Source: Burkholderiaceae bacterium (GTDB lineage Bacteria > Pseudomonadota > Gammaproteobacteria > Burkholderiales > Burkholderiaceae_E). Taken from it: DNA of 64,000 bases. Location: contig JAHDXY010000001.1 of NCBI GenBank assembly GCA_023384005.1, positions 20,042 to 84,041 on the forward strand. Direction: 5' to 3'. The translations under genes and the position numbers were made by a program. The notes under the pieces were generated by a model, which was not told the origin of the DNA, made no database searches, and worked only from the letters and a program-made list of their open reading frames with translations. Positions 10,832 to 64,000 of this stretch are shown piece by piece. Every line of letters starts with the position of its first letter. Within the stretch, counting starts at the first letter, position 1.

Positions 10832-10843
10832 AATCTCTTTTCG

Positions 10844-35290: not shown

Positions 35291-35917
35291 CTACATCCGT
35301 ACTTCCACCAAGGGGATTTGCCCCCAGGTGTGGGCGTTGTAATCGTCGATCATCGTCATGCACTCGTCAGTGTCGAAACGTACCGGGACATCAAACTCGT
35401 AACCGGCAGTCAATACGGCACCCGAACCCGGCGCACTTGCAAACGTCACGACCCCAGTCGTGGTATCGGCCGACCAGCCATTTCCCTGTTCAGTGCCATT
35501 AATTGCAATGCGCACGGTGCCGGCGACCGGCTTTTTGATCTGGCGTACGAAATCCACGCCACCGCTCGAATACGCTTTCGTCAGCTGGAACGTGGTTTTC
35601 GTGCCGTCCCCGGTTCCGATGACCTGATCCGTGGCGGCAGGCTTCTTTGTGGCCGGGCAGCTTTTGTAGTCCGTCCAGTCCTTGAACCTGAACCCGTGCT
35701 TCCGCCCCAGGCGGGCGTAGAAGAATGCAAGGACCTGGTCCAGCTCCTTCTGGCTTTTGACGCCATAAGCCACATCGTACTCGTAGCGGGGCCGGGACCA
35801 TTCGATGTTGCGGTCCTCGGCACCATTAGCGCGCGTGTACACGGTCGTCTTGAAGGCAGGCCCTCCGACAGCACCGTAGGAAATCTTGGGCGGGAATTGC
35901 AGCTCGTGGAAATCCAT
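35291..35917 (-). CDS. distal tail protein-like (RcGTA g12-like), copy A
   Basis: 208 aa; MDFHELQFPPKISYGAVGGPAFKT. Same length as copy B and roughly 60 percent identical by eye. Confidence 0.75.
   Translation of the reverse strand: MDFHELQFPPKISYGAVGGPAFKTTVYTRANGAEDRNIEWSRPRYEYDVAYGVKSQKELDQVLAFFYARLGRKHGFRFKDWTDYKSCPATKKPAATDQVIGTGDGTKTTFQLTKAYSSGGVDFVRQIKKPVAGTVRIAINGTEQGNGWSADTTTGVVTFASAPGSGAVLTAGYEFDVPVRFDTDECMTMIDDYNAHTWGQIPLVEVRM
35494..35507. repeat. palindrome-family copy (intragenic)
   Basis: TGCCATTAATTGCA (1 mismatch). Inside Dit-like copy A (IAING); absent from copy B. Confidence 0.75.
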
Positions 35918-41654: not shown

Positions 41655-41668
41655 TGCAATTAATTGCA
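41655..41668. repeat. palindrome-family copy, perfect
   Basis: TGCAATTAATTGCA. 1 nt after stop 41670 and 61 nt before the ATG at 41593. Confidence 0.9.
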
Positions 41669-44558: not shown

Positions 44559-44572
44559 TGCAATTAATTGCA
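44559..44572. repeat. palindrome-family copy, perfect
   Basis: TGCAATTAATTGCA. 61 nt before the ATG at 44497. Confidence 0.9.
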
Positions 44573-46955: not shown

Positions 46956-46969
46956 TGCAATTAATTGCA
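46956..46969. repeat. palindrome-family copy, perfect
   Basis: ATGCAATTAATTGCAT (16-bp palindrome). 8 nt after the capsid stop, then a hairpin and T-run. Confidence 0.9.
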
Positions 46970-53368: not shown

Positions 53369-53382
53369 TGCAATTAATTGCA
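53369..53382. repeat. palindrome-family copy, perfect
   Basis: TGCAATTAATTGCA. 8 nt after the polymerase stop and 40 nt before the portal ATG. Confidence 0.9.
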
Positions 53383-53390: not shown

Positions 53391-55784
53391 CTACGCGACG
53401 AGCTTCAGCTTCTTGAGTTCTGCGAGGTTCAGCCCGGCTTCCGCGTCCGCAGGGAATCGCAGCTGCGGCTTCCAGCCCACCTCGTGTAGGGGGAGATTTG
53501 ACATAATCTCTTGCGCCCGACCAGCCCACAGGGCTGCGTCTTGTTCCGGCACGTAGGCGATCAGGGCGTCGTGGATCATACCCACCACTTCGATTTCCCC
53601 GTTCGGGTAGGAGGCATCGATCAGGGCAATGGCCCACAGCATCATGTCCGACAGGCACGACTGGATCGGGCTGTTGATGGCCTGGCGCTCCGCTTTCGAG
53701 CGGATGGCCCGATCCCAGCTGCGGATCATCGGCAGGTGCCGGATGCGGCCGAGCGGCGAGCGGACCATCTCGGAGAACCGGACGATCTCACGCTGCTTCT
53801 CGTGGTAATCTGTCAGGCCGCTGTACAGCGTGAAGAAGTCGTTTCTTATCTTCTCGGCCTCCGCATAGCTGAGCTTCAGGCCATAATTCGCCCAGGCGTA
53901 AGCCATGAAGCCTTCGACACCCATGCCGTAGAGCAGGCCGAAGTTGCCCGCCTTCGCCTGCTGGCGCAGGTCCTCGAACATCTTGGCGAACTTGGCATCC
54001 TCGGTTTCCTTCCACGAGACGAACTCGTCGTAGGGCACCCCGCCGAGCTGAGCCCCGGTCACCGCATGCAGGTCCAGACCCTGCTCGTAGGCGGCGATCA
54101 TATTCTTCTCGTTCGCCACGCAGGCGACCACGCGGAGCTCCCCCTGACTGTAGTCGAGGGAGATCACGACCTTGCCGGGCGGGGCCGGGAAACAGGCCCT
54201 GATCTTCTTCGCCCACTTCGTCTTCTTCGGAAGGATCTGGAACGCCGGGTCCTTGGCCGACAGACGTCCGGTGACGGTGCCAGACTGGTCGTCCTCCTCG
54301 TCGTACAACCCGCCGTGAAAGAGCATGTATGTCGGATGCAGCCGGCCGTCAGGGCGCAAGTGATTGAGGAAGCCTACGATGAACGTCGACAGCGTCTTGG
54401 ACGCCGTGTCCATTTCGGTCAGGGCTTCGACCATGGCCATGGCTTCCGGCACATCAGCAAACTGGAGCAGATGGGATTTGGCCATCGAGGGTTCCCCCGT
54501 TTTGGCCGTGAGCTCTCTTGGTTTCAGGCTTAGACCGTGGGGGGTGAAGAAGTATTCCTTGAGAATTGAGGGCAGTAGAGGGCTTTTCCCGGCCTTTAGC
54601 TGGCTCTCGATCCGCTCCCGGTACTTGATGCGCATCTTGTTCGGGAGAAGGCTCATCGCCTTGTCCTGGCTCTCCTGGATGACGCCCCGAACCTCATCGG
54701 CCAGCTGCTCGTATTTCTCCTTGTCGACGAGGACGCCCCGCCGCTCGATCTTCTCGAACGCGCGAGCGGCCGGATGCAGGATCTTGATGTAGAAGGTCGC
54801 CAGCTTCGGGTCCTCGGCGAGCTCGTCGCGCATGATGTCAGCCACCTGCTGGCAGGCGTCCGTGTCGCCACCCGCGTAAGTCAGAAAATCTTCGGGCGGG
54901 ATCTTCTCCATCGCGCTCTTGTCGTAAGTCGCGTTCAGGTAGTCGTCATAGCCGCCGATCGGCGTGAAAATCTTGGCATGCAGGTTCAGGCTGTTCGAGC
55001 GGTTCTCGTTCAGGAGCGTGCCGACCAGCATGGTGTCGAACTTGAAGTTCGTGCACTCGATACCCCACTTCACCGCAATCCAGATCAGGTCGTATTTCAG
55101 GTTCGCGCCGCGCAGCTTGACCTTGGGAGAGGTCAGGAGCCACTTGATCTGGTCGAACAAAGGGACGGAGGGATTGAAGGGGACGGGCGGCTTGTGCGGG
55201 CCTAGATAGAGCACTTCCGCAGTATTGGGGCGGGCAGTGAAGCTGATCGAGACAATGTCGCGATCGGGATACCACGGATAGAACGTCATCGTCTCCGTAT
55301 CCATCGACACGTCGACGGGCTTGCCGGTCTTGGCGTAGCGTTCCTCGATCCAGTCGATCATCGGCTGGTAGTCATTGACGTAGCGATAGTCTCCGATCTC
55401 CGGCTCCAGTGATCCGGTGCGCATCAACCGGACGGCCAGGCGGACGTCCCAATCAATGATCTCCGACTTGTCCGGTTCACTGCTCGTCAACGTAGGGTCG
55501 AACGTGACGAGGTAGTAGCCACCGTGGCTGCTCTTGATCGGCTTCTCTCGCAGAGACGTGACGGTTCTGTTCTTCGGTGCGAGGCCAGCGCGGCGCAGCA
55601 CGTCCAGGGGCTTGTTGCCGCAAACGAGAACGATTTCACCCGCTTCAGCTTCCGGGGGCGGGTTGTCGTCAATCAGCGGCAGGAATTGATGAGGCGGGAT
55701 GTCAGGCCGGTGGTTCTTGAGCGATACCCCGAACGTCTTCTTGATCAACGGCGCATCGGCCGTGGTCCAAATCTTCAAGGTCAT
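53391..55784 (-). CDS. family A DNA polymerase with 3'-5' exonuclease domain and N-terminal extension
   Basis: 797 aa. Exo I MDTET; TVTGRLSAKDPAFQILPK; motif A LDYSQGELRV; motif B RQQAKAGNFGLLYGMG; motif C MIHDA. Confidence 0.9.
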   Translation of the reverse strand: MTLKIWTTADAPLIKKTFGVSLKNHRPDIPPHQFLPLIDDNPPPEAEAGEIVLVCGNKPLDVLRRAGLAPKNRTVTSLREKPIKSSHGGYYLVTFDPTLTSSEPDKSEIIDWDVRLAVRLMRTGSLEPEIGDYRYVNDYQPMIDWIEERYAKTGKPVDVSMDTETMTFYPWYPDRDIVSISFTARPNTAEVLYLGPHKPPVPFNPSVPLFDQIKWLLTSPKVKLRGANLKYDLIWIAVKWGIECTNFKFDTMLVGTLLNENRSNSLNLHAKIFTPIGGYDDYLNATYDKSAMEKIPPEDFLTYAGGDTDACQQVADIMRDELAEDPKLATFYIKILHPAARAFEKIERRGVLVDKEKYEQLADEVRGVIQESQDKAMSLLPNKMRIKYRERIESQLKAGKSPLLPSILKEYFFTPHGLSLKPRELTAKTGEPSMAKSHLLQFADVPEAMAMVEALTEMDTASKTLSTFIVGFLNHLRPDGRLHPTYMLFHGGLYDEEDDQSGTVTGRLSAKDPAFQILPKKTKWAKKIRACFPAPPGKVVISLDYSQGELRVVACVANEKNMIAAYEQGLDLHAVTGAQLGGVPYDEFVSWKETEDAKFAKMFEDLRQQAKAGNFGLLYGMGVEGFMAYAWANYGLKLSYAEAEKIRNDFFTLYSGLTDYHEKQREIVRFSEMVRSPLGRIRHLPMIRSWDRAIRSKAERQAINSPIQSCLSDMMLWAIALIDASYPNGEIEVVGMIHDALIAYVPEQDAALWAGRAQEIMSNLPLHEVGWKPQLRFPADAEAGLNLAELKKLKLVA

Positions 55785-55802: not shown

Positions 55803-56222
55803 TCACGCTGCAGCGGTCCATTTCGCCTTCCCCCGCCGGTCAAAAGATTTCACGATCGCCTTGTCCAGAAGAGACCGTGCACCTGCCGAGGTCGCCGACT
55901 GGTTTCTCTCCAGCCAACCCTTGACCTGCCCCATTTTTGCGAGGTTAAGGACATGCACCTCGATCTGAGTCTTGAGGTTCCTGTCGTTGCCGGCAATCAT
56001 CAGCAAGGCTAGGTTTCCCATCACCTTGACGATGATCATGTGATTTGAATTGTTCAGGAGGGCGCTGACGATCTTCACCTTGATCGGAACTGAAAGACCA
56101 CCGATCTCGAGATTGAATTGCTTCTCGCCCCGCAGCTGCGGCTCCGCACTCTGCAATTCGATCTTCATGTTGAGGCTGTCGGCCAGGGCGTAGACCAGCG
56201 ACTCTCTCACTCCGTTTCCCAC
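55803..56222 (-). CDS. hypothetical protein
   Basis: 139-aa ORF overlapping the upstream gene by 16 nt. Confidence 0.5.
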   Translation of the reverse strand: MGNGVRESLVYALADSLNMKIELQSAEPQLRGEKQFNLEIGGLSVPIKVKIVSALLNNSNHMIIVKVMGNLALLMIAGNDRNLKTQIEVHVLNLAKMGQVKGWLERNQSATSAGARSLLDKAIVKSFDRRGKAKWTAAA

Positions 56223-56431
56223 ACCAGCTCTCCATTCTTACGTGTGCAGGCCCATCTCCCGAGCGTCACGCCGAAATATGTGACGACGAACTCCAGCCGG
56301 TCAGTCTTCTCGTCGCGCACGACGGTGTGCAGAACGACCGTCTCGTCGGACAAGGCACAGAAGACCGGAGAGGTCTCGATCAGATCGCCGACCTCGAGTG
56401 CTTCGAATTGCTCGACTGTCAGCATCGTCAT
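56207..56431 (-). CDS. hypothetical protein
   Basis: 74-aa ORF with ATGA overlap to the upstream gene. Confidence 0.45.
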   Translation of the reverse strand: MTMLTVEQFEALEVGDLIETSPVFCALSDETVVLHTVVRDEKTDRLEFVVTYFGVTLGRWACTRKNGELVWETE

Positions 56432-57252
56432 GACTTGATCACCTTCATCTCGGGGAGAGGCGTTTCGAGCGGGACCCCGAGGCCCATCAGGATCGCACCC
56501 ATCGTCTTGCTGGCAACGACCATGTCATGGCCGACGTCGAGGTGCAGGCTCGCGTAATCCATGGCCTTGTCGACGTTACCGAACCCGCATGACGCGATGT
56601 TCTCCGTGTAATTCTGCCACGATGGGCCTTCGATCCTGACCGATAGCTTTCCGTTTTGGAAACGAGCCGCGATCCGGACGTCCTTGTTCGCCCCAACGAC
56701 GAAGTAGCGCGATCCTACCGACGTACCTTGCACCGGCTGATACATCATGCTCGCATCACGGAGCTTGACCGGTGCGGCCGACTTCAACTGGGTCAGATCG
56801 AACATGGGCCAGAGCCCCTGCGGCTTGGGCTTCTCAGGTGCCGACTTGATCGGCGGCAGCTTGTTCAGTGCGCTCAGCTGCTGTTCCCATTGCCCCGGCG
56901 TATACATGCTCGCTTCAACGGCGCTGGTCAGCTTCTCGGCCGTCTTGTCCTCGAGCTTGGCTCCGTAAGCCGCTATGAGACCGGAGATTGTGCTACCCAG
57001 GGCGTGGCGTAGGGCCGTCTTCTGAGTTGGAGGAAGCGTCCCAGCATTCAGCTTCTGCAGCTGATCCAGCGTGACTGGCACCTCATGTTGGACAGGCTCA
57101 CCAACGAGCTCGGCGGGGATCGAGAACGTGAACTTGGTCGCCCCCAGCGAGACTTGCACGGGCTTGGACTTCAGCCAGTCATAGAGATCCTGCGGAATGC
57201 CGATCTTCTTGAGGGCTGCCAGCCCGTTCATCGATTTGATGCTAATAGCCAC
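56428..57252 (-). CDS. hypothetical protein
   Basis: ORF track 56428..57270. GTG at 57252 is preceded by AGGAGG. Confidence 0.55.
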   Translation of the reverse strand: MAISIKSMNGLAALKKIGIPQDLYDWLKSKPVQVSLGATKFTFSIPAELVGEPVQHEVPVTLDQLQKLNAGTLPPTQKTALRHALGSTISGLIAAYGAKLEDKTAEKLTSAVEASMYTPGQWEQQLSALNKLPPIKSAPEKPKPQGLWPMFDLTQLKSAAPVKLRDASMMYQPVQGTSVGSRYFVVGANKDVRIAARFQNGKLSVRIEGPSWQNYTENIASCGFGNVDKAMDYASLHLDVGHDMVVASKTMGAILMGLGVPLETPLPEMKVIKS

Positions 57253-57284
57253 TCTATCCTCCTGATCCAAATGGCCTTATCGAC

Positions 57285-57312
57285 ATTCTAACTTGGCCCG
57301 CCGTGAAGACAA
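57285..57312 (-). promoter_or_regulatory. sigma70-like promoter candidate
   Basis: Minus strand: motif, 9 nt, TTGTCT, 16 nt, TAGAAT. The leader has AGGAGG before the GTG at 57252. Confidence 0.45.
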
Positions 57313-57321
57313 GATGAATTA

Positions 57322-57335
57322 TGCACTTAATTGCA
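57322..57335. repeat. palindrome-family copy
   Basis: TGCACTTAATTGCA (1 mismatch). The central TAA is the stop of 57327-57611; a promoter candidate follows. Confidence 0.85.
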
Positions 57336-57611
57336 CTGACACGACCGTAGGGCAAGCTGTCTGCACTCAATCCGTCGTCGCTCGGATCGCATAAAGCTCT
57401 CCTGCAAGGTTCGCGGCGGATCGCACTCGAACAGGTACGTATGCAGGGCAAATTCAATCCCATCGTAGGCGTCGGCGTTGCGGCGGCCGTACCAAGCCTC
57501 CAGACAACACTCTTTGCAGAGCTTGTAGCGCTCATCGTCCGTCCGCTTATTGGGATAGAACTCCTCAAGCGGTTTTGACTTTGCGCAGCGACCGCACGTC
57601 TTCATCCCCAT
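57327..57611 (-). CDS. zinc-ribbon protein
   Basis: 94 aa with CGRC...CKEC pairs. Ends Cys-Asn-TAA inside a motif copy. Confidence 0.5.
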   Translation of the reverse strand: MGMKTCGRCAKSKPLEEFYPNKRTDDERYKLCKECCLEAWYGRRNADAYDGIEFALHTYLFECDPPRTLQESFMRSERRRIECRQLALRSCQCN

Positions 57612-58303
57612 ATACTCCCCTCATTCGGTAGAGGATAGAACACCTTGGTTCGTTTGCTCGAGGATGAGCTCAACCCACCGGTGACACTCGTATACGACTC
57701 CTTCGTCGGCTTGGAGCTGCTGATCCCGAAGTGCGCCATCAGGAACTTGACCTGTTCGGAACTTTCCACGGCCTTCTGGCAATAGTGCTGGCGGACATAC
57801 GATATTGCGTCCTTCTCCCCGAACTCGGATACGAGGGCAGCGAGGAAGGTTCCCGTCCGCCCATGGCCGCCAATGCACCCGCAGTGCACCTTCATCCCGG
57901 ATTCGAGCTGCTTGCGCGTCCACGCGATCAGCTTCTTGAACTCCTCCGGCTTGTCCGGGGCTCGCATATCCGTGATCTTGAAGAAAACCTCCGTGCCCTT
58001 CTTCCAGGGCCAGCTCCTCTCCGAAAAGCGCATTCCCGAGTCGAAGCCGATGTAGACGTCGGCATCGAGCACAACGGGGGACGAGCAGGAGCCTCCATAG
58101 ATCACCAGATCGGTGCCAGGCAACTTCAGGGGAGGGTGCTTCTCATAGCAGCGAACGTACGAGCTCCCCGTCGACTTGTAGCTGGAGGAGCCATAATCAT
58201 AATCAGGCTTCGAACTCCCAAACGTCTTAGTGTTCTTCTGATTGCCCCTGACCTGGGCGCGGTCACCGTGAATCACGTCGTTCAAGTTCTTTCTTTTGGA
58301 CAT
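57602..58303 (-). CDS. dual-specificity (CX5R) phosphatase-like protein, paralog 2
   Basis: ORF track 57602..58504. ATG at 58303 follows GGAGGGAG. ITDMRAP (Asp loop), HCGCIGGHGRTG (P-loop) and AVESSEQVKF (Q motif). Confidence 0.7.
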   Translation of the reverse strand: MSKRKNLNDVIHGDRAQVRGNQKNTKTFGSSKPDYDYGSSSYKSTGSSYVRCYEKHPPLKLPGTDLVIYGGSCSSPVVLDADVYIGFDSGMRFSERSWPWKKGTEVFFKITDMRAPDKPEEFKKLIAWTRKQLESGMKVHCGCIGGHGRTGTFLAALVSEFGEKDAISYVRQHYCQKAVESSEQVKFLMAHFGISSSKPTKESYTSVTGGLSSSSSKRTKVFYPLPNEGSIWG

Positions 58304-58323
58304 CCGCCTTCTCCCTCCTGGAT

Positions 58324-59418
58324 TTACGCGGCTTCGCTGCGGATAATTTGGATCTTCTTCACTTCCAGGCCCGGCATGACCTGGAACCAATTCTTGGCGT
58401 GCTCCTCGGCGGCCTTCTTGGCGGCCTCCTCCTGGGCTTTCTTCTTCGCCTCGGCGGCTTTCAAAGCAGCCTGGGCAGCCGGCGACATGCCGTGCTTGCT
58501 CCATTGCTGCTGCTTATCCTGCTGGTACTTCTTGACAGAGCCCAGCGCCTCGACGACCTCCCAATCCACATAGTCGCCAATCTTATCCGGGAAGCGGTCC
58601 TTGACTTGCTGCATCCAAGCAACTAGCTCCGGGTTGATGTATTTCTTGACGATGCCGTCAAATAATACGGCCTGCGGTATCTGTCCCGAGCGCTGGATAT
58701 CGAGTATTCTTATAATCGCAGCATGGTTATACATGCCGTAAAACAGCGATTTGTTAAATATGGGGCCATTATTGTGGCTCAAAGTCCACACTGTATCAAG
58801 CATCATCTCCGCTGAATACTCTCCCTTAACAAACCGGACCAAGCAATCGGCAATGGAGCCCCACGCGGGTCCGCCGTAGCCGCCAGCCCATTTCGAATTG
58901 TAGAACTGCCACTGCATGCACTCGCAATAGGCCCCGATCGAAGCGTCGGGCGGGTTCTTCAGGAACTCCTGGTGGATGCTGGCTTCACCCCCCTTGATCA
59001 TCTTGAAGAAGTCGGCCACCGGCGTCCCGAACTTCTCCACCATCTTCGCATAGTTGGCCGACAAAGACTTATTGTGCCGGGCCTCGCGGGTGCAGATCAG
59101 CAGGAGATAGTAGAACGCCCTAATGGCCCGTGGAGCGAGCTCCTTGTGATACGCCTCAACGAACTCCAGCTCCCAATCATTGAGCGGCTCCAGAGGATCA
59201 CGCTGGCTGCCAATTAGCGCCATCCCGTGGTTCATCCCATAGAACCAAAGGGCTTGCGTCTCCGGAACGCTGTAGCCGTCGCTGGCGTTGTTGGCTTGCT
59301 GGTAGATAGCCACCCGATCCGCGACGCTCTTGCAAAGCACCGCGCTCATATCGCGCTTGGCGCACAGCACCCGCGACGAGTGATAAGCCAACGTGTCCTG
59401 GGGATCGGTCAAGGCCAT
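58324..59418 (-). CDS. conserved-looking hypothetical protein with Lys/Ala/Glu-rich C-terminal tail
   Basis: 364 aa. Blocks CTREARHNK and WAGGYGGPAWGS. Tail AAQAALKAAEAKKKAQEEAAKKAAEEHAK. No family recognised. Confidence 0.6.
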   Translation of the reverse strand: MALTDPQDTLAYHSSRVLCAKRDMSAVLCKSVADRVAIYQQANNASDGYSVPETQALWFYGMNHGMALIGSQRDPLEPLNDWELEFVEAYHKELAPRAIRAFYYLLLICTREARHNKSLSANYAKMVEKFGTPVADFFKMIKGGEASIHQEFLKNPPDASIGAYCECMQWQFYNSKWAGGYGGPAWGSIADCLVRFVKGEYSAEMMLDTVWTLSHNNGPIFNKSLFYGMYNHAAIIRILDIQRSGQIPQAVLFDGIVKKYINPELVAWMQQVKDRFPDKIGDYVDWEVVEALGSVKKYQQDKQQQWSKHGMSPAAQAALKAAEAKKKAQEEAAKKAAEEHAKNWFQVMPGLEVKKIQIIRSEAA

Positions 59419-59468
59419 CTAACACCCTCCATGGTTTCCAAATGGCGTTGTACTCATACTAATAAATT

Positions 59469-59499
59469 GACGTGTGCAATCAATGAGATAACACACGTC
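59469..59499. repeat. 8-bp inverted repeat in the AT-rich leader of 58324-59418
   Basis: GACGTGTG-(15 nt)-CACACGTC. The loop contains a motif half-site. Confidence 0.6.
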
Positions 59500-59502
59500 T
59501 CC

Positions 59503-59516
59503 TGCATTTAATTGCA
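59503..59516. repeat. palindrome-family copy
   Basis: TGCATTTAATTGCA (1 mismatch). 6 nt after stop 59523. A half-site TGCAATCAAT lies at 59475. Confidence 0.85.
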
Positions 59517-59522
59517 CGTCAA

Positions 59523-60035
59523 TCAGCTGTAAATCATCCTGAGAAACGGCACCCGCTGCGTCCAGGCGAAGAGATGCAGCCACTTCTGCAGTTCTCGGGC
59601 ATCGAAACTCTCCACGAAGCGGGCTTGAGGCTTCGTCTCGACCGCCCGAGGATGGTAATACTCGCGCACATAATCGACCGGGTCGGTTACACCTGCGGTC
59701 TTCGCGAGCAGGGCAAGGAACAAGCCTGTGCGCCCCCATCCGCCCATGCAACCGACGTAGACGTCCCTGCCTCGGATCGCCGCCCGGAACGTATCCCGGA
59801 TCGCCATGTCCAACGCCAGCCGATCATTTGGAATGCTGAAGTCGTGGATCGGAACATGAGCATCGAAACCGCCCTCCGGGACGCGCTCGGCTCGCACGCA
59901 AACCCCGAACGCCTGATCCCGGCCGGGGAAGTTGTCGTAGGGTCCACCCGCGATCGACAAGGTGTAGAAGCCACCGCGCCAGCCCAGATCGAGCGGTAGG
60001 TAGCCATTCGGCTCGAGTTGATGTTGGGTATCCAT
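59523..60035 (-). CDS. dual-specificity (CX5R) phosphatase-like protein, paralog 1
   Basis: 170 aa. IHDFSIP (Asp loop), VGCMGGWGRTG (P-loop) and AVETKPQARF (Q motif). Confidence 0.75.
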   Translation of the reverse strand: MDTQHQLEPNGYLPLDLGWRGGFYTLSIAGGPYDNFPGRDQAFGVCVRAERVPEGGFDAHVPIHDFSIPNDRLALDMAIRDTFRAAIRGRDVYVGCMGGWGRTGLFLALLAKTAGVTDPVDYVREYYHPRAVETKPQARFVESFDARELQKWLHLFAWTQRVPFLRMIYS

Positions 60036-60076
60036 GCTTTATCGACCCTCCTTGGTCATCCGTTTGCAGTCGGTTG

Positions 60077-60301
60077 TCAGGATAGTTTGATGCGGCTCAC
60101 GTCAAGAACTCGGCCGTCCTCGATCAGCAGAATGAAATCGTTGAACCTCCAGTTGCCTCGCTCGTGGGTGATGGGTGCAGACCGTCGCGCCATCCTGGCT
60201 ATCCGCTTGACCGTGTCGCCGTACAGGCCCGCGTAGCGAGCCTTCTGCACAGCCTCTTCCGTCACCTGGAACTCCCGGAACCTCGTCCCTTTGCCACTCA
60301 T
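60077..60301 (-). CDS. hypothetical protein
   Basis: 74-aa ORF with ATGA-type overlap to the upstream gene. Confidence 0.45.
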   Translation of the reverse strand: MSGKGTRFREFQVTEEAVQKARYAGLYGDTVKRIARMARRSAPITHERGNWRFNDFILLIEDGRVLDVSRIKLS

Positions 60302-60585
60302 GGGCCACTCTTGCTCCGTTTTCGGTAACGATCTCCACGAAGGATTTCGATCTCTTGCGGCGCTTCGATCGCAATACGTATCGCCCCGTATTTGTAGAAG
60401 TCGCCGGCAGATACGAAAACGTCGTCCATGATCTCCTTCGCTTCCGTATCGGTTATCTCAATCTCCTTCTGCTCTCCGGCAAGCCGGACCCAGAACCTCG
60501 CACCGGATTCGATCCTCGTGATGACCACCTGGCGATCCTCCACCCAGAAGTCATCACTCTCCTTCATGCTCAGTACCAAAGGCAT
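60298..60585 (-). CDS. CsrA-like RNA-binding protein with internal insertion/duplication
   Basis: 95 aa. MPLVLSMKESDDFWVEDRQVVITRI and IRIAIEAPQEIEILRGDRY parallel E. coli CsrA [23 protein letters not shown] and VRIGVNAPKEVSVHREEIY. About 35 extra residues lie between them. Confidence 0.5.
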   Translation of the reverse strand: MPLVLSMKESDDFWVEDRQVVITRIESGARFWVRLAGEQKEIEITDTEAKEIMDDVFVSAGDFYKYGAIRIAIEAPQEIEILRGDRYRKRSKSGP

Positions 60586-60596
60586 CTCCGCCTCCT

Positions 60597-60610
60597 TGCA
60601 ACTGGTTGCA
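60597..60610. repeat. palindrome-family variant with GC centre
   Basis: TGCAACTGGTTGCA. The outer arms are kept and the TTAA core is replaced. Between stop 60621 and start 60585. Confidence 0.5.
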
Positions 60611-60620
60611 TCTCATTACC

Positions 60621-62582
60621 TCAATCGGTGAGAACGGAGAAGGCTGCGTAGTCAGCCGGGACGATGACCGGGTCTTCGCTAGAGCCAGTCTCGTGGACCA
60701 CCTTCAACCCCTTCAGCTCCGGCATTTGTGACGCGCGGTCCAGCAGCACCGACACAAAGTTGTCGGGCTCCGTCCCGAAGGCATCGATCAGGTCCAGATC
60801 GGCATCCCGGCACAGGCTAAGCGGAGAACGAATGTCCAGGATCACGTGCTCCAGGCTGGGCAGCGCAGCCAACCCGTTCAGAACCGTCCCCAGCACTTCC
60901 TCAGACCCCCACCAGTAGGCGGCCTGGACCGCGTGCCGCCGATGATCCGCTCCGAGGTCTACGGGGGACGACTCATAAGCCTGCATCTTGTCCAGGCACC
61001 AGCCCACCACCTTCTTGACCTCGGGGCTGCCAGAGCTGTCGATCACCGGCACATCGATCTCGAACCAGACGTTCCCCGTGTTGCCGTCGATCGTAACCTT
61101 CTTGCACTTCTTGGCGGCTTCCATGTCGAGCGCAGTGCAGCCGACCACGCAGGTCTTGTCCATCGCTCGCGCGACTACGGCGGCGTGGCTGGTCGCCCCG
61201 CCTGTCTGGGTCAGGATGCCGATCGCCGCGTTCATGCCGGCGATGTCATCGGGCGTCGTTTCGTGCGTGACGAGGATGCAGGGCTCCATGCAATTAATTG
61301 CGTCGCCCGACGAAAACACCGGCTTCCCGGTCACCACGCCGGGGCTCGCCGGGAGCCCGACCACCTTCGGGTCCGCCTTGAACGACGGATCCAGCATCGG
61401 CCGGCGCACGGCCTTGAACTGCGCCTTAGTCAGCCTCTTGAGCGCCGTTTCCCGGTCAATCACATCTCCCCACACGAGGTCGATTGCGATCTTGAAGGCA
61501 GCCCGGGCCGAACGCTTGCCTACCCGGCTCTGCAGGATGAACAGCTGGCCCTGCTGCACGGTGAACTCCACATCCACCATGTCCTTGTACATATCCTCCA
61601 GTTTGTGGCAGGTCTGAATGATCTCGTCGGCCATCTTCGGCCACTCGCCACCGAGAGACTGCATCTCCTTGAGCGGGCGGGGCGTCCTGATCCCAGCCAC
61701 CACGTCCTCCCCCTGGGCGTTCTGCAGGAACTCGCCCATGATCGAGTCATTGCCTGTCGACGGGTCTCGCGTGAACAGCACGCCCGTCCCCGAGTCGTCG
61801 CCCATGTTGCCGAACACCATGGCCTGCACGTTCACGGCGGTGCCCATGCCCTCGTCGATCTTGTTCAGCTTGCGGTACTCGATTGCCCGAGGATTCATCC
61901 AGCTGTCGAACACCGCCCTGATCGCGGCGCGGAGCTGCTCCTGGGCATCGTTGTCGGGGAACGGGAAGCCCTTGTTCTCCTTGAACGCCTTCCGGTAACG
62001 AGCCACCAGCGAAGACAGGTCTATGAAATCGAGTTCCGTATCATCGACCTTCCCAAGCTCCTTCTTTAGCTTGGCCAGCTGGAACTCGAACACCGCGTGC
62101 GGGACGCCGTAGGCCGTGGAGCCCAGCATCTGGATCAGACGACGCTGGCTGTCCATTGCAGCCCGCTGACCGATGCGATCAGCCCACGCACCGAAGTTGT
62201 CCTCGGTCAGGCCGACATTCAGGATCGTGTCCATCATGCCGGGCATCGAGACCGGAGCGCCCGAGCGAACCGAGACGAGCGGCGTGTACCCGAACTGCTT
62301 GGTCAGCCACTGCATGCCCGCGAAGGCATCGCCCACCACGTCCTTGATGAACTCGTCGCGCTCCTTGCCTTCCAGCTGCATGTAAGCGAGACACAGGTCA
62401 GTCGGAATCGTGAAGCCGGGCGGGACGGGCATGCCGGCCTGGGCCATCATGACGAGAGCCGCGCCTTTGCCTCCCAGATGCTTCTTGGCGAGCTTCTGGT
62501 CAGTTTCTGTCCAATCACAATGACCGGCAGAGAACCTGTAGATCTTGCTTCCCACGTTACCCTCCATGGTTTCTGTGGACAC
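60621..62582 (-). CDS. pyruvate phosphate dikinase-like phosphotransferase lacking the PEP/pyruvate domain
   Basis: 653 aa. PPDK N-terminal ATP-grasp blocks (LGGKGAAL, PLVSVRSGAPVSMPGMMDTILNVGL, NAQGEDVVAGIRTP) and the phosphohistidine domain GGATSHAAVVARAMDKTCVVGC. These are followed by only about 150-170 unrelated residues. Confidence 0.85.
   Translation of the reverse strand: MSTETMEGNVGSKIYRFSAGHCDWTETDQKLAKKHLGGKGAALVMMAQAGMPVPPGFTIPTDLCLAYMQLEGKERDEFIKDVVGDAFAGMQWLTKQFGYTPLVSVRSGAPVSMPGMMDTILNVGLTEDNFGAWADRIGQRAAMDSQRRLIQMLGSTAYGVPHAVFEFQLAKLKKELGKVDDTELDFIDLSSLVARYRKAFKENKGFPFPDNDAQEQLRAAIRAVFDSWMNPRAIEYRKLNKIDEGMGTAVNVQAMVFGNMGDDSGTGVLFTRDPSTGNDSIMGEFLQNAQGEDVVAGIRTPRPLKEMQSLGGEWPKMADEIIQTCHKLEDMYKDMVDVEFTVQQGQLFILQSRVGKRSARAAFKIAIDLVWGDVIDRETALKRLTKAQFKAVRRPMLDPSFKADPKVVGLPASPGVVTGKPVFSSGDAINCMEPCILVTHETTPDDIAGMNAAIGILTQTGGATSHAAVVARAMDKTCVVGCTALDMEAAKKCKKVTIDGNTGNVWFEIDVPVIDSSGSPEVKKVVGWCLDKMQAYESSPVDLGADHRRHAVQAAYWWGSEEVLGTVLNGLAALPSLEHVILDIRSPLSLCRDADLDLIDAFGTEPDNFVSVLLDRASQMPELKGLKVVHETGSSEDPVIVPADYAAFSVLTD
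61289..61302. repeat. palindrome-family copy (intragenic)
   Basis: TGCAATTAATTGCG (1 mismatch). Inside the PPDK-like CDS (DAINC). Confidence 0.75.
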
Positions 62583-62587
62583 GATTC

Positions 62588-62615
62588 ATTCTAGCTTTGG
62601 ACCCGTGAGGCGCAA
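62588..62615 (-). promoter_or_regulatory. sigma70-like promoter candidate
   Basis: Minus strand: motif, 8 nt, TTGCGC, 16 nt, TAGAAT. The GTG at 62582 is only 5 nt past the -10, so the mRNA could be leaderless or use a later start. Confidence 0.45.
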
Positions 62616-62623
62616 GAAGTTTT

Positions 62624-62637
62624 TGCAATTAATTTCG
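62624..62637. repeat. palindrome-family copy
   Basis: TGCAATTAATTTCG (2 mismatches). The central TAA is the stop of 62629-63138; a promoter candidate follows. Confidence 0.75.
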
Positions 62638-63138
62638 CATTGAGCTCGTGTAGAAGCCTAGCGTCATCGCCCTGCGGAGGATTTTCCTTGCCGCCTTCTG
62701 CCATTTCCGCTCCTCCAGACGCCAGACCGCCCCCTCACCTTTCACGTCCTTACGATCATCCTTGACGTCATCCATGAGCAGGAGAGCGACGAGCACCGCC
62801 TGGTTGCGGGCATCCAGCCACCGGCCTTCATCGACAAGCGTCAGGATGAACTGCGCACAGCAATAGAGCCCGTGGCGGGGGTCGTCCGGCGACAGGTCGC
62901 GCAAGAGTGCCGTGGCGGCCTCATCGACCCTTTTCGAGAGCCTTGCGATGCTCAGCATATCGATCTGCGATAGGGGTGCGACTGCCGCGAGGTTTAGATG
63001 GTGCATCACGTCGGCCCGGAGCTCGAACCCCGCTTTCTTGCACTCCTCCATCATCAGGAAGAGCATGTGCGCGGGAAGACACTGCTCGATGATCGTCAAA
63101 TCCCGCGCCAACAAGTCCACTTGTGCCAGTGCCTTCAT
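62629..63138 (-). CDS. hypothetical helical protein
   Basis: 169-aa ORF with GGAGG 10 nt upstream of the ATG and an in-frame TGA three codons upstream. Confidence 0.55.
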   Translation of the reverse strand: MKALAQVDLLARDLTIIEQCLPAHMLFLMMEECKKAGFELRADVMHHLNLAAVAPLSQIDMLSIARLSKRVDEAATALLRDLSPDDPRHGLYCCAQFILTLVDEGRWLDARNQAVLVALLLMDDVKDDRKDVKGEGAVWRLEERKWQKAARKILRRAMTLGFYTSSMRN

Positions 63139-63212: not shown

Positions 63213-64000
63213 TCATAGCGCTCGATGCGAGCTGGCAGTCCTTGCTCGACCAGAGCCTGCTCGAAGCCCTGCTGGTTCGTGTCGCTGTAAACCCGAAACC
63301 GTGGCATGCCGATGCTCCTTTCCATGCTCCCCCTGGGTGCGTTCAATATGAGTTAGGCTGTGCTTGCTCTGCGGCTTGGCTTCGATCAGCGAGCGCGGCA
63401 TGCGATGGGTCGGAATCTGATGACGAGACCAGATTTCACGCCTCAAGGTCAGCCCGAAAACGACACCCGCCATACTGTCAGAGACGTCTTTCGATCCGTG
63501 CGGCGGGTGATCGATCTTGTTCTTCTTCGTGTCGATCTCGAGAGTCCGCATCTCCTGCATCGCCTTGGCATGCGTGGGCGCAAGGATGCGGCCATCGTAG
63601 AATGCCTGCTTCGTCACGTCATAGGCATAGGTGTCCGTGTCCATGGATTGGTAGCCGGTCATGAAGCCTTGCCGGTGCATGATCTGAATCGAGTCTTTGG
63701 ATTGGAAGCTGTCGAAGCTCACCCATTTGACCGGCAGATTCATCGTATCGCGGAGCGTGTAGATCAGCTTGCGAATGTTCTCAAACTCGATCTCCCCGCC
63801 TCGCGGCGGCCGGATCTCGAGGATCATGTCGAACTGAATCACCGGCATCGTCTCAATAAAGTCACCCCGACTGACGGCGACAAAATTCGGCACATGCCCT
63901 ATGCTGACGCCTGCGCTGTCTTTCGAGATCGCAAGATCTATGTGCACGAACCGAGGCTCGTTCGGGTTCACGATGCGCTTCGGGTACAGCTGCAGCTTCG
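63213..64000 (-). CDS. terminase large subunit, C-terminal (nuclease) part; 5' end outside window
   Basis: The reading frame stays open to the window edge. FVHIDLAISKDSAG and IDHPPHGSKDVSDSMAG resemble terminase RNase-H-fold nuclease motifs. The last 40-50 residues look low quality. Confidence 0.7.
   Translation of the reverse strand, partial: KLQLYPKRIVNPNEPRFVHIDLAISKDSAGVSIGHVPNFVAVSRGDFIETMPVIQFDMILEIRPPRGGEIEFENIRKLIYTLRDTMNLPVKWVSFDSFQSKDSIQIMHRQGFMTGYQSMDTDTYAYDVTKQAFYDGRILAPTHAKAMQEMRTLEIDTKKNKIDHPPHGSKDVSDSMAGVVFGLTLRREIWSRHQIPTHRMPRSLIEAKPQSKHSLTHIERTQGEHGKEHRHATVSGLQRHEPAGLRAGSGRARTASSHRAL

What the first reader, a model, noticed from the sequence alone, without database searches (positions are those of the whole stretch)
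55803..63138. Accessory cluster between terminase and DNA polymerase: truncated dikinase, two DSP phosphatases, a CsrA-like protein and unknowns
Eleven co-directional genes encode: a helical unknown, a PPDK-like His-phosphotransferase without its substrate barrel, a CsrA-like protein, a 74-aa unknown, CX5R phosphatase 1, a 364-aa unknown, CX5R phosphatase 2, a zinc ribbon protein, and three more unknowns. It is established that dikinase plus dual-specificity phosphatase is the enzyme logic of reversible glucan phosphorylation (plant glucan-water dikinase with SEX4/LSF2; laforin in animals). It is also established that CsrA is the classical regulator of glycogen metabolism in E. coli. My inference is that the phage may phosphorylate and dephosphorylate a polymer (glycogen or another glucan, exopolysaccharide, or nucleic acid) or a host protein, coupled to post-transcriptional rewiring. 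I do not recognise a described phage system of this composition, but I cannot search databases.
Basis: partly seen in the sequence, partly recalled or inferred. Interest (0 to 1): 0.85.

Follow-up and report, generated by a model that had tools for sequence, protein, structure and literature searches.

The report
Conserved phage dikinase–phosphatase module, function unknown
A large group of bacteriophages carries, next to its DNA polymerase gene, a fixed set of genes for an ATP-driven phosphate-transferring enzyme, a new-fold partner protein, two phosphatases and an RNA-binding-type regulator; no one has described it as a system, and the published labels for its parts are wrong.

Summary
On the minus strand, 63138-55803, lie eleven tightly packed genes. 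They include a PPDK-like dikinase with the ATP-grasp and catalytic-His domains but no PEP/pyruvate barrel, a CsrA-like protein, two CX5R phosphatases and a 364-aa unknown ("g364").

The set is not chance. The same gene order, dikinase–CsrA-like–PTP–g364–PTP–g280–PolA–portal, recurs in about 100 related phage loci, down to about 30% identity. These include phages of Rhodobacter, Stenotrophomonas, Rhizobium and Vibrio. Only the zinc-ribbon gene is private to this phage.

g364 gives a confident all-alpha model with no PDB match. Its family has 1,663 clusters at 50% identity.

Two links tie the parts together:
- In one unrelated phage, g364 is fused to the C-terminus of a dikinase, where PPDK carries its substrate barrel.
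- g364 sits beside a PTP in four separate contexts.

Best reading: ATP → His → acceptor held by g364, with two phosphatases working on the same substrate class. The substrate is probably a nucleic acid end or a nucleotide; this step is inferred and weak.

The glucan reading has no support, because no carbohydrate-binding module is present. The published "glycolytic PPDK" label fails on domain content.

The parts
62629..63138 (-). g169: helical protein of unknown function, first gene after the terminase
   Evidence: No Pfam, PHROG, NCBIfam or PADLOC hit. 38% identical to RcZahn gp5 and 60% to the Brucella-contig homologue. Found in 27 of the related loci, all closer relatives.
60621..62582 (-). 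Truncated PPDK-like dikinase (653 aa): ATP-grasp domain, swivel catalytic-His domain and a ~120-aa lineage-specific C-terminal domain in place of the PEP/pyruvate TIM barrel
   Evidence: Pfam PPDK_N E 3.8e-46 and PEP-utilizers E 8e-24, with no PEP-utilizers_C. phrog_18609 'kinase' E 4e-156. PDB PPDKs align to residues 14-533 only, with the GGKG, SVRSGA, DVEF..Q.R and TSH motifs kept. Closest NCBIfam model is the short PRK05878 type, 447 bits against a cut-off of 456. The C-terminal domain is found only in these dikinases.
60298..60585 (-). CsrA-like small protein (95 aa) with a ~35-residue insertion between the N-terminal and C-terminal CsrA strands
   Evidence: Pfam CsrA E 3e-5, 24.3 bits, below the cut-off of 27. 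19 of 26 family members hit CsrA, best E 4.9e-7. The family profile's 10 best PDB hits are all CsrA/RsmE/RsmF/RsmN, and both termini align. Present in 62 related ORF sets.
60077..60301 (-). g74a: 74-aa protein, start overlaps the stop of the CsrA-like gene
   Evidence: 56% identical to RcZahn gp8. Found in 50 loci. Fused to the CsrA-like protein in one ORF of locus L047. The DLP3 homologue is annotated 'transcriptional repressor'.
59523..60035 (-). PTP1: minimal dual-specificity/PTP-fold phosphatase (170 aa)
   Evidence: Pfam Tc-R-P and PTP-SAK E 1e-4, below cut-off. PDB hits to ShufPTP, SsoPTP and DUSP23, E 2.5e-4 to 6e-3. The P-loop GC(M)GGxGRTG is kept in 65 of 66 orthologues. The I-x-D-F-x-x-P general-acid motif was detected in about 40 of 66 by a strict pattern.
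58324..59418 (-). g364: all-alpha protein of new fold with invariant ExRH, YGGxxWxxIA and LxHNxGxxFxK motifs; proposed acceptor-site partner of the dikinase
   Evidence: No Pfam hit; phrog_20946, function unknown. AF2 model pLDDT 87.9, pTM 0.80. Best PDB Foldseek E 0.7. BFVD returns only its own family. 1,663 clusters at 50% identity with E<=1e-3. Fused C-terminal to a PPDK-like ATP-grasp+His protein in L076. Adjacent to a PTP in L074, L075 and L076.
57602..58303 (-). PTP2: second PTP-fold phosphatase (233 aa from the ATG at 58303) with a basic Ser/Gly-rich N-terminal region
   Evidence: Pfam PTP-SAK E 2.7e-7, 31.2 bits, above the cut-off of 27. The P-loop GCIGGHGRTG is kept in 65 of 66 orthologues and I-x-D-M-x-x-P in most. 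50% identical to RcZahn gp11. Homologues are mis-annotated 'thymidylate synthase' in DLP3, SIO-2 and PHROG 17568.
57327..57611 (-). Zinc-ribbon protein (94 aa): private insertion, not part of the conserved module
   Evidence: PHROG hits only to the N-terminal Zn-ribbons of endonuclease VII, HNH and Lar-like proteins. No homologue in RcZahn or in 71 related loci.
56428..57252 (-). g280: two-domain protein (residues 10-100, disordered linker, alpha/beta domain 150-274)
   Evidence: phrog_25950, function unknown. AF2 pLDDT 88.2. No confident PDB fold match: best E 0.07 to T3S chaperone Spa15, and MotA DNA-binding domain at probability 0.72. 3 of 40 family members hit Pfam Ribosomal_L12 C-terminal domain, E 4.6e-7. 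Present in 61 loci.
56207..56431 (-). g74b: 74-aa protein, start overlaps the g280 stop
   Evidence: 40% identical to RcZahn gp13. Found in 47 loci. No family hit.
55803..56222 (-). g139: 139-aa protein immediately upstream of the DNA polymerase
   Evidence: 27% identical to RcZahn gp14. Found in 46 loci. No significant family hit.
53391..55784 (-). DNA polymerase I (family A), invariably the next gene after the module; context, not a member
   Evidence: 63% identical to RcZahn gp15. PolA follows the module in every locus that reaches that far.
62624..62637 (.). Copy of the 14-bp palindrome TGCAATTAATTGCA upstream of the dikinase gene. Further copies lie at 59503-59516 (upstream of g364), 57322-57335 (upstream of g280), 53369-53382 (upstream of portal) and 61289-61302 (inside the dikinase gene)
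   Evidence: 39 sites in the window against about 1 expected. The motif and its junction positions are conserved across the lineage. Likely promoter or operator; function not tested.

Best explanation
The cluster is a conserved phage phosphoryl-transfer module aimed at a nucleic acid end or a nucleotide. It is not aimed at pyruvate or a glucan.

Proposed mechanism:
1. The truncated dikinase uses ATP to load its swivelling histidine. This is the chemistry of the PPDK/PEP-synthase family.
2. g364, a new all-alpha domain, supplies the acceptor site that the missing TIM barrel supplies in PPDK.
3. The two distinct Cys-phosphatases, PTP1 and PTP2, remove phosphomonoesters from the same substrate class.
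4. The CsrA-like protein, with g74a, binds RNA to control or target the system.
5. g280 is an adaptor.

In function this would be a 'kinase plus phosphatase' end-healing or nucleotide-processing unit, analogous to T4 polynucleotide kinase-phosphatase but built from unrelated folds. It would serve replication or the repair of nuclease damage.

What is shown: domain content, intact catalytic motifs, conserved linkage, the dikinase-g364 fusion, and g364-PTP adjacency.

What is inferred: that g364 is the acceptor domain, and that the substrate is a nucleic acid or nucleotide.
For: - Catalytic competence and lack of the barrel in the dikinase.
- Fixed gene order with PolA in about 100 loci.
- L076: a single 692-aa ORF reads PPDK-like ATP-grasp, then His motif, then g364 domain, followed directly by a PTP. 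It lies among an SNF2 helicase, a ThyA-like gene and a primase-helicase.
- g364-domain proteins sit next to a PTP in L074 and L075 as well.
- Both PTP paralogues keep the P-loop in 65 of 66 orthologues. The general-acid motif is detected in most PTP2 orthologues and about 40 of 66 PTP1 orthologues.
- Nucleic-acid flavour of the contexts:
  - The CsrA-like protein is a core member.
  - g364 is fused to KOW repeats and an L12-CTD-like domain in L073 and L111.
  - Neighbours are a cREC cyclic-phosphate domain plus an R2K ATP-grasp in L074.
  - AlkB-like oxygenases lie nearby in L073 and L111. A 2H tRNA-ligase phosphodiesterase domain, NT5C and a metallophosphoesterase lie nearby in L111.
- PTP2's best Pfam family is the DSP-PTPase domain of 'Swiss Army Knife' proteins. 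PMC7824862 treats that family as an RNA-end phosphatase family.
- None of the DLP3 homologues (gp135-144) is in the virion proteome, which fits intracellular enzymes.
Against: - No substrate was identified. g364 and g280 match no solved fold, so the acceptor is a guess.
- The dikinase-g364 fusion was seen in one contig only.
- The main lineage is one clade, so its roughly 100 loci count as one evolutionary observation.
- No ligase is part of the module.
- The RNA-repair-type neighbours occur in only two or three distant loci, some of them several kb away.
- KOW/SH3-like and L12-like domains are not specific for RNA.
- PTP-fold enzymes of this minimal type are mostly protein phosphatases.
- A kinase and phosphatases on one substrate could instead form a regulatory cycle on a protein.
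Confidence: 0.35

Rival explanations
1. Step in a DNA base hypermodification pathway. The dikinase with g364 phosphorylates a hydroxyl on replicated phage DNA (for example 5-hydroxymethyl-pyrimidine or an attached sugar), as the P-loop 5-hmU DNA kinase does in phages M6 and ViI. The PTPs trim or recycle phosphorylated intermediates.
For: - The module always abuts the DNA polymerase.
- In L076 it lies among replication genes next to a ThyA-like, dUMP-type gene.
- DLP3 genomic DNA resists all 15 restriction enzymes tested, modification type unknown (PMC7326821).
- Relatives carry a dCTP deaminase beside the dikinase, plus glycosyltransferase and sugar-nucleotide genes upstream.
- Kinase activation of 5-hmU is established logic for thymidine hypermodification (PMC8989533 and PMC13229309).
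Against: - No P-loop kinase, aGPT-Pplase/AADT, TET/JBP or hydroxymethylase was detected in the module or in the conserved upstream genes.
- The g364 model does not match any viral aGPT-Pplase model in BFVD.
- The glycosyltransferase and dcd genes lie within 10 kb in only about 8-10 loci.
- DLP3's restriction resistance could be due entirely to its glycosyltransferase pathway.
- A CsrA-like core member is unexplained by this reading.
Confidence: 0.2
2. Host-takeover or counter-defence by protein phosphorylation and dephosphorylation. The dikinase with g364 phosphorylates a host or phage protein, for example a translation factor or polymerase. The PTPs erase host kinase marks or reset the target.
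For: - The closest solved relatives of PTP1 are protein phosphatases: SsoPTP, ShufPTP and DUSP23.
- Pfam Tc-R-P and PTP-SAK come from toxin/effector-type proteins.
- The His domain is homologous to PTS enzyme I, which phosphorylates a protein.
- L12-CTD-like domains occur in g280 relatives and in L073; that domain binds translational GTPases on the ribosome.
- An R2K ATP-grasp, a predicted peptide ligase acting on proteins, neighbours the module in L074.
Against: - No known protein-kinase or docking domain is present.
- Known dikinase acceptors are hydroxyls of small molecules or polymers, not proteins (general knowledge of the PPDK/PEPS/GWD/rifampin-phosphotransferase family).
- The strict linkage to PolA and the replication-gene context of L076 are not explained by this reading.
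Confidence: 0.15
3. Metabolism of a small nucleotide-derived molecule. Examples are rebuilding or destroying NAD/ADP-ribose-type or cyclic-nucleotide immune signals, or one-step conversion of dNMP to dNTP by pyrophosphoryl transfer from the His-PP intermediate.
For: - cREC, 2H and NT5C neighbours of distant g364 proteins. PMC9503650 assigns cREC and 2H to NAD-ADPr and cyclic-phosphate networks.
- dCTP deaminase lies directly upstream of the dikinase in VH2_2019.
- The dikinase family forms a pyrophosphoryl-His intermediate (established PPDK mechanism).
Against: - No hit to any PADLOC defence model and no Pfam signal-degrading domain in the module proteins.
- The contexts are few.
- KOW and CsrA-like partners argue for a polymer rather than a small molecule.
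Confidence: 0.1
4. One reading: reversible phosphorylation of glycogen or another glucan, as with plant glucan-water dikinase and SEX4/LSF2 or animal laforin, coupled to CsrA-type control of glycogen metabolism.
For: The formal enzyme logic is the same: a dikinase plus CX5R dual-specificity phosphatases in one conserved cluster.
Against: - No CBM20, CBM45 or CBM48, nor any carbohydrate-binding or glucan-metabolism domain, in any module protein.
- All neighbours are replication and packaging genes.
- Distant g364 contexts are nucleic-acid related.
- Bacterial glycogen is soluble and is not known to need phosphorylation for breakdown (general knowledge).
Confidence: 0.03
5. Published annotation: a genuine pyruvate phosphate dikinase acting as an auxiliary metabolic gene that boosts host glycolysis or gluconeogenesis (PMC9229204, PMC10671443, PMC12038007).
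For: About 50% identity to plant and bacterial PPDK over the first 530 residues, roughly 420 bits.
Against: - The PEP/pyruvate-binding TIM barrel (about 340 residues, Pfam PEP-utilizers_C) is absent. Only about 120 unrelated residues follow the linker.
- The score is far below the NCBIfam PPDK equivalog cut-off: 559 against 843.
- The fixed linkage to PTPs, g364 and PolA is not explained.
Confidence: 0.01

Closest known systems
Pyruvate phosphate dikinase / PEP synthase family, including the short 'PRK05878' PPDK-like proteins of actinobacteria
   Same: ATP-grasp nucleotide domain, swivel domain with catalytic His (TSH motif) and linker helices. About 50% identity to PPDK over 520 residues.
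   Different: Lacks the PEP/pyruvate TIM barrel, so it cannot make or use PEP. It carries a lineage-specific ~120-aa tail, and the acceptor function is probably supplied in trans by g364.
Glucan-water dikinase with SEX4/LSF2, and laforin (reversible glucan phosphorylation)
   Same: Pairing of a His-dikinase with CX5R dual-specificity-type phosphatases in one pathway.
   Different: No carbohydrate-binding modules, no glucan genes, and a phage replication context. The resemblance is one of logic, not of membership.
T4 polynucleotide kinase-phosphatase (Pnkp) and other RNA/DNA end-healing systems
   Same: Proposed work-alike: a kinase activity and phosphatase activities kept together, phage-encoded. 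Distant homologues sit in nucleic-acid-repair-type contexts with cREC, 2H, AlkB and metallophosphoesterase.
   Different: Pnkp uses a P-loop kinase and a HAD phosphatase. Here the folds are a dikinase, a new all-alpha domain and PTP-fold phosphatases. No ligase is linked and no activity is shown.
Thymidine hypermodification clusters (5-hmU DNA kinase plus amino-acid:DNA transferases; phages M6, ViI, SP10)
   Same: A phage kinase near replication genes, and a relative (DLP3) with restriction-resistant DNA.
   Different: No P-loop 5-HMUDK, no aGPT-Pplase/AADT, and no TET/JBP or hydroxymethylase found in the module.
Phosphotransferase system enzyme I phosphorelay
   Same: Homologous mobile His domain. 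The His-then-Cys chemistry is conceivable with PTP-fold partners.
   Different: The donor is ATP through an ATP-grasp domain, not PEP. No HPr, EIIA or EIIB homologues are present.
CsrA/RsmA translational regulators
   Same: The N-terminal strand and the C-terminal 'RVAIEAPREIEILRGD' strands align to CsrA, including the Arg matching CsrA R44.
   Different: A ~35-residue insertion, a score below the Pfam cut-off for this protein, fusion to g74a in one relative, and RNA binding not tested.

Membership tests
Pyruvate phosphate dikinase (EC 2.7.9.1) | N-terminal ATP-grasp nucleotide-binding domain | tested here: met
   Pfam PPDK_N E 3.8e-46. Aligns to PDB PPDKs from residue 14.
Pyruvate phosphate dikinase (EC 2.7.9.1) | Swivel domain with catalytic His in a T-S-H motif | tested here: met
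   Pfam PEP-utilizers E 8e-24. GGATSHAAVVARA aligns to GGMTSHAAVVARG of maize PPDK.
Pyruvate phosphate dikinase (EC 2.7.9.1) | C-terminal PEP/pyruvate-binding TIM barrel (PEP-utilizers_C) | tested here: not met
   No Pfam hit. Alignment to PPDK stops at residue 533 of 653. TIGR01828 scores 559 against a cut-off of 843.
Glucan dikinase / glucan phosphatase system (GWD-SEX4, laforin) | Carbohydrate-binding module on the dikinase and/or phosphatase | tested here: not met
   No CBM or starch-binding domain in any of the proteins in Pfam, PHROGs or NCBIfam.
Glucan dikinase / glucan phosphatase system (GWD-SEX4, laforin) | Dual-specificity phosphatase with a CX5R loop | tested here: met
   GCMGGWGRTG and GCIGGHGRTG.
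Glucan dikinase / glucan phosphatase system (GWD-SEX4, laforin) | Activity on phospho-glucan, or linkage to glucan metabolism genes | tested here: not met
   Neighbours are terminase, PolA, portal, ParB-like and dcd genes. No glucan genes appear in about 100 loci. Enzyme activity cannot be tested here.
PTP/DSP superfamily | C-X5-R(S/T) P-loop and general-acid Asp on a PTP fold | tested here: met
   PTP2: Pfam PTP-SAK 31.2 bits, above the cut-off of 27. PTP1: below cut-off, but PDB hits to SsoPTP, ShufPTP and DUSP23 at E about 3e-4. The P-loop is kept in 65 of 66 orthologues of each paralogue. The general-acid motif was detected in most PTP2 and about 40 of 66 PTP1 orthologues.
CsrA/RsmA family | Sequence match to the CsrA domain over the whole ~53-residue core | tested here: inconclusive
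   The window protein scores 24.3 bits (cut-off 27) and matches only profile positions 27-48. 19 of 26 relatives hit at E<0.01. Profile-to-PDB hits are all CsrA/Rsm, at E 0.0045-0.2, with split N- and C-terminal matches around an insertion.
CsrA/RsmA family | Dimer binding GGA motifs in RNA | not testable with these tools
   Needs RNA-binding assays or CLIP.
Thymidine hypermodification cluster (5-HMUDK plus aGPT-Pplase/AADT) | P-loop 5-hmU DNA kinase and an aGPT-Pplase/AADT transferase | tested here: not met
   No such Pfam domains in the module. The g364 model matches only its own family in BFVD.
Thymidine hypermodification cluster (5-HMUDK plus aGPT-Pplase/AADT) | Source of 5-hmU (TET/JBP dioxygenase with or without ParB, or dUMP hydroxymethylase) in the cluster | tested here: not met
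   The conserved upstream genes (ParB-like, gp2-like and others) give no TET_JBP hit. The remainder of this phage's own genome lies outside the window and was not examined.
T4 Pnkp-type end-healing enzymes | P-loop polynucleotide kinase and HAD (DxDxT) 3'-phosphatase | tested here: not met
   Neither domain was detected. The claim is only that the module may work like Pnkp.

The most novel reading that the evidence does not exclude
g364 is a new catalytic or acceptor domain that turns a barrel-less PPDK-type enzyme into a new class of ATP-driven, phospho-histidine-mediated kinase for nucleic acids. This would be either a new type of polynucleotide-end kinase or an enzyme that writes a phosphate-based modification on phage DNA. 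Dedicated Cys-phosphatases and a CsrA-type RNA-binding regulator would accompany it. The system would be core to a large, globally distributed phage lineage, and its g364 domain is reused in jumbo-phage giant proteins.
Probability: 0.25. Interest if true: 0.85.

Novelty: categorically new. Interest (0 to 1): 0.72.

Why it matters
**Scale.** The module is core to a widespread phage lineage. It occurs in 40 sequenced isolates infecting Vibrio, Stenotrophomonas, Rhizobium and Rhodobacter, and in roughly 100 IMG/VR contigs. Its central protein family has more than 1,600 clusters at 50% identity but no Pfam model, no solved relative and no proposed function.

**Annotation.** Published genome papers label the dikinase a glycolytic auxiliary metabolic gene. 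They label the second phosphatase 'thymidylate synthase' and g280 'transporter'. These labels feed into phage-therapy safety assessments and ecological 'AMG' counts, and they are wrong on domain content.

**Enzymology.** If the proposed mechanism holds, it would add a new acceptor domain to the dikinase family. It would also add either a new polynucleotide kinase-phosphatase chemistry or a new DNA modification route.

**Testability.** Several host-phage pairs are in culture (RcZahn, DLP3/DLP5, many Vibrio phages), so the question can be tested directly.

Tried and rejected
- **Nucleotide similarity to known phages.** No megablast match. Relatives are found only at the protein level.
- **g364 as aGPT-Pplase, HD, Fic, DhaL or any solved fold.** No Pfam hit. 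Profile against PDB sequences gave nothing better than E 0.18. Foldseek against PDB gave a best E of 0.7; the DhaL hits (TM about 0.2) were judged to be noise.
- **g280 fold.** Only marginal similarity to T3S chaperones and the MotA C-terminal domain. Not used as evidence.
- **Dikinase C-terminal domain.** The word-index homology search returned one hit. A local HMM found the domain only in these dikinases. No structure could be predicted for it, because both AF2 jobs went to g364 and g280.
- **This phage's own upstream region** (sugar, dcd or ThyX genes). Exact-protein look-ups of the source contig failed, so only relatives could be inspected.
- **TET/JBP or hydroxymethylase in the conserved upstream genes.** None found.
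- **PADLOC defence models.** No hit.
- **More dikinase-g364 fusions.** Only the one contig was found.
- **'Phage' records from wastewater carrying PPDK-like genes** (L009, L010). No other module gene is present, so they were set aside as uninformative.
- **Giant g364-containing ORFs** (L079, L080, L082). No informative Pfam domains.
- **Burroughs & Aravind 2016 RNA-repair survey.** Could not be read because it is not held.
- **tRNA genes.** None in the window.

Full report
**What is there**

The finding's interval holds eleven co-directional ORFs on the minus strand. They lie between the terminase gene (63213-63971+) and a family-A DNA polymerase (53391-55784), which is followed by the portal gene. 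In transcription order they are:
- g169 (62629-63138)
- a 653-aa PPDK-like protein (60621-62582)
- a 95-aa CsrA-like protein (60298-60585)
- g74a (60077-60301)
- PTP1 (59523-60035)
- g364 (58324-59418)
- PTP2 (57602-58303; the ORF extends to 58504, but the ATG at 58303 fits the homologues)
- a zinc-ribbon protein (57327-57611)
- g280 (56428-57252)
- g74b (56207-56431)
- g139 (55803-56222)

Gaps are 0-104 nt, and several start and stop codons overlap. There is no excess of sigma-70 promoter-like or terminator-like sites.

The dikinase has Pfam PPDK_N (E 3.8e-46) and the mobile PEP-utilizers His domain (E 8e-24), but no PEP-utilizers_C barrel. It aligns to maize and Clostridium PPDK over residues 14-533 only, with the ATP-site motifs and the GGATSHAAVVARA catalytic-His motif intact. 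It scores 559 bits against the PPDK equivalog cut-off of 843. It comes closest to the short 'PRK05878' PPDK-like model, at 447 bits against 456.

PTP1 and PTP2 have CX5R loops and a general-acid Asp. PTP2 passes the Pfam PTP-SAK threshold. PTP1 hits SsoPTP, ShufPTP and DUSP23 in the PDB.

The CsrA call is sub-threshold for this protein. However, 19 of 26 family members hit Pfam CsrA, and the family profile's ten best PDB hits are all CsrA/Rsm proteins. Both the N-terminal strand and the C-terminal strands align, around an insertion of about 35 residues.

g169, g74a, g364, g280, g74b and g139 have no informative family hit in Pfam, PHROGs, NCBIfam or PADLOC.

**Where it comes from, and whether it is more than chance**

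The window is part of a 95,965-bp contig deposited as a Burkholderiaceae MAG. It is collinear with Rhodobacter phage RcZahn, so it is a phage genome. There is no nucleotide-level match to any deposited phage.

Ten of the eleven genes have collinear homologues in RcZahn gp5-gp14, at 27-61% identity. The zinc-ribbon gene does not.

Related clusters occur in:
- Stenotrophomonas phages DLP3, DLP5 and Summit
- Rhizobium phages RHph_Y1_11 and RHph_TM16
- about 33 Vibrio siphophage records (SIO-2, VHS1, VH2_2019 and others)
- a Brucella intermedia contig

.

Scans of IMG/VR with g364 alignments returned about 100 loci. Local HMMs show the order dikinase, CsrA-like, (g74a), PTP, g364, PTP, g280, (g74b), (g139), PolA, portal in essentially every locus long enough to see it. 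This holds down to about 30% g364 identity.

The core is therefore the dikinase, the CsrA-like protein, two PTPs, g364 and g280, always abutting PolA. g169 is confined to closer relatives. The zinc-ribbon gene is private to this phage.

All these loci belong to one phage clade. The synteny proves conservation under selection, but it counts as one evolutionary observation of linkage.

**g364 and g280**

g364 has 415 close homologues, none with a Pfam domain. It has 1,663 clusters at 50% identity with E<=1e-3 among 1.84 billion representatives.

AlphaFold2 gives a confident all-alpha model (pLDDT 87.9, pTM 0.80). Foldseek finds nothing in the PDB (best E 0.7). In BFVD it finds only the same family. 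A profile search of PDB sequences is also empty.

Across very divergent members the invariant residues are E-x-R-H, Y-G-G-x-x-W-x-x-I-A and L-x-H-N-x-x-x-x-F-x-K. This is a polar, phosphate-friendly set that suggests an active or binding site.

g280 models confidently as two domains joined by a disordered linker (pLDDT 88.2). It has no significant fold match either. Three of 40 relatives carry a Ribosomal L7/L12 C-terminal-like segment.

**Independent links between the parts**

Four distant contexts outside the main clade were found.

1. *L076, an AT-rich 95-kb viral contig.* A single 692-aa ORF has an N-terminal PPDK-like ATP-grasp region (Pfam E 5.9e-8; local HMM E 1.5e-15). Its PDB hits are all PPDKs, in three collinear segments that include the His motif aligned to the catalytic His. 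Its C-terminal part is a g364 domain with all three signature motifs.
   - g364 thus occupies the position of the PEP/pyruvate barrel in PPDK.
   - The next gene is a PTP.
   - The neighbours are an SNF2 helicase, a ThyA-like gene and a primase-helicase.
2. *L074.* A cREC (cyclic-phosphate-processing receiver) gene and an R2K ATP-grasp gene precede a 912-aa g364-domain protein, followed by a PTP.
3. *L075.* A 590-aa g364-domain protein is followed by a PTP.
4. *L073 and a 595-kb huge phage (L111).* g364 is fused to KOW repeats, and in L073 also to an L12-CTD-like end.
   - AlkB-like oxygenases lie nearby in both.
   - L111 also has a 2H tRNA-ligase-type phosphodiesterase domain, an NT5C nucleotidase and a metallophosphoesterase within 7 kb.

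g364 domains also occur inside giant ORFs of 2,400-3,100 aa that have no recognisable domains.

Both PTP paralogues keep their P-loops in 65 of 66 orthologues: GC(M)GGxGRTG for PTP1 and GCIGGHGRTG for PTP2. The general-acid motif is found in most PTP2 orthologues and in about 40 of 66 PTP1 orthologues by a strict pattern. So two distinct, active phosphatase functions are maintained.

In L047 the CsrA-like protein and g74a are one ORF.

**How it most likely works**

Shown:
- The dikinase can bind ATP and has its phospho-carrier His, but has no pyruvate/PEP site.
- g364 is its conserved neighbour and, in one lineage, its C-terminal domain.
- PTPs accompany g364 in four contexts.

Inferred:
- g364 supplies the acceptor site for the phospho-His. 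In the main lineage it does so in trans, perhaps docking on the dikinase's private C-terminal domain.
- The two PTPs hydrolyse phosphomonoesters on the same substrate class.

For the substrate, the evidence leans to nucleic acid or nucleotide:
- The invariable position next to PolA, and the replication context of L076.
- RNA-binding-type partners (CsrA-like, KOW).
- Repair-type neighbours (cREC, 2H, AlkB, phosphoesterases).
- PTP2's best family is the DSP domain of 'Swiss Army Knife' proteins. Iyer and colleagues treat that family as RNA-end phosphatases (PMC7824862).

I therefore favour a kinase-plus-phosphatase end-healing or nucleotide-processing module, a work-alike of T4 Pnkp built from unrelated folds. 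My confidence is about 0.35.

DLP3's homologues gp135-144 are absent from the virion proteome, which fits intracellular enzymes.

**Rivals**

- *DNA base hypermodification, about 0.2.* DLP3 DNA resists all 15 restriction enzymes tested (PMC7326821). Relatives carry dcd, ThyX, glycosyltransferase and sugar-nucleotide genes. But none of the defining enzymes of known hypermodification clusters is present, and those accessory genes are only loosely linked.
- *A protein target, about 0.15.* This fits the PTPs' closest solved relatives and the L12-like and R2K hints. It does not explain the linkage to PolA.
- *Small-molecule or immune-signal metabolism, about 0.1.* It rests on a few contexts only.
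- *The published 'glycolytic PPDK' label* (PMC9229204, PMC10671443, PMC12038007). It is contradicted by the missing barrel.

**Comparison with what is known, and novelty**

The parts belong to known superfamilies (dikinase, PTP, CsrA-like), joined by two proteins of unknown fold. No described system has this composition. Ten full-text literature searches found no paper that treats these genes as a unit or tests any of them.

Existing annotations are misleading:
- 'pyruvate phosphate dikinase' as an auxiliary metabolic gene
- 'thymidylate synthase' for PTP2 homologues, including PHROG 17568
- 'transporter' for the g280 homologue in Vibrio phage Virtus

.

I rate it as lying outside known kinds of system, with one caveat: the function is not established, so it could still turn out to be a new implementation of a known function such as end healing or DNA modification.

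**Limits**

- No substrate was identified.
- The dikinase-g364 fusion was seen once.
- The dikinase C-terminal domain could not be modelled.
- The rest of this phage's genome, outside the window, could not be retrieved.

Noticed in passing
window, 39 sites, e.g. 41655-41668, 44559-44572, 46956-46969, 53369-53382 (exact); 62624-62637, 59503-59516, 57322-57335 within the module: A 14-bp AT-rich perfect palindrome, TGCAATTAATTGCA, occurs 39 times (up to 3 mismatches; 31 times with up to 1) against about 1 expected. Several copies lie in short gaps just upstream of minus-strand genes. It is conserved across the whole phage lineage, including a Vibrio phage and a Brucella contig. It recurs at the same junctions: upstream of portal, g364, g280 and the dikinase, and inside the dikinase gene. 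Probably a lineage-specific promoter or operator.
   Followed up: partly
L076:8255-10333 (IMGVR_UViG_3300022188_000008): A single ORF fuses a divergent PPDK-like ATP-grasp+His protein to a g364 domain and is followed by a PTP. It is the only such fusion found.
   Followed up: yes
L079:1488-10571, L080:3888-13187, L082:2442-9767, L133:2085-8513: g364 domains are embedded in giant phage ORFs of about 2,100 to 3,100 aa. Those scanned have almost no recognisable Pfam domains (LRV repeats in one). L133 was not scanned. What these proteins are is unknown.
   Followed up: partly
L111 (LR756511.1, 595-kb uncultured huge phage) 8962-13907; L116:1-4125: Two g364-domain genes sit in tandem. In L111 the first carries KOW-like repeats. 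AlkB-like, NT5C, metallophosphoesterase and 2H (tRNA ligase CPD-like) genes lie nearby.
   Followed up: partly
public annotations of relatives: DLP3 gp141, SIO-2 VPEG_00063, PHROG 17568; Vibrio phage Virtus ORF31: PTP-fold phosphatase homologues are annotated 'thymidylate synthase', and the g280 homologue is annotated 'transporter'. These appear to be propagated errors.
   Followed up: partly
window 34655-35281 and 35291-35917 (minus strand): Two adjacent 208-aa ORFs both match the same RcZahn minor tail protein (gp30), at 58% and 54% identity. This points to a tandem duplication of a tail gene in this phage.
   Followed up: no
L008:17978-19525 (Brucella intermedia contig, gene after the portal): The 515-aa protein downstream of the portal carries a precomputed Pfam Acb1 hit; Acb1 is an anti-CBASS phosphodiesterase family. 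This suggests a head-packaged counter-defence domain in this phage lineage. The corresponding window gene was not checked.
   Followed up: no
window 57327-57611: The zinc-ribbon ORF resembles only the N-terminal Zn-ribbon of endonuclease VII, HNH and Lar-like phage proteins, and is absent from all relatives. It may be a remnant of a homing-endonuclease-type insertion between PTP2 and g280.
   Followed up: partly
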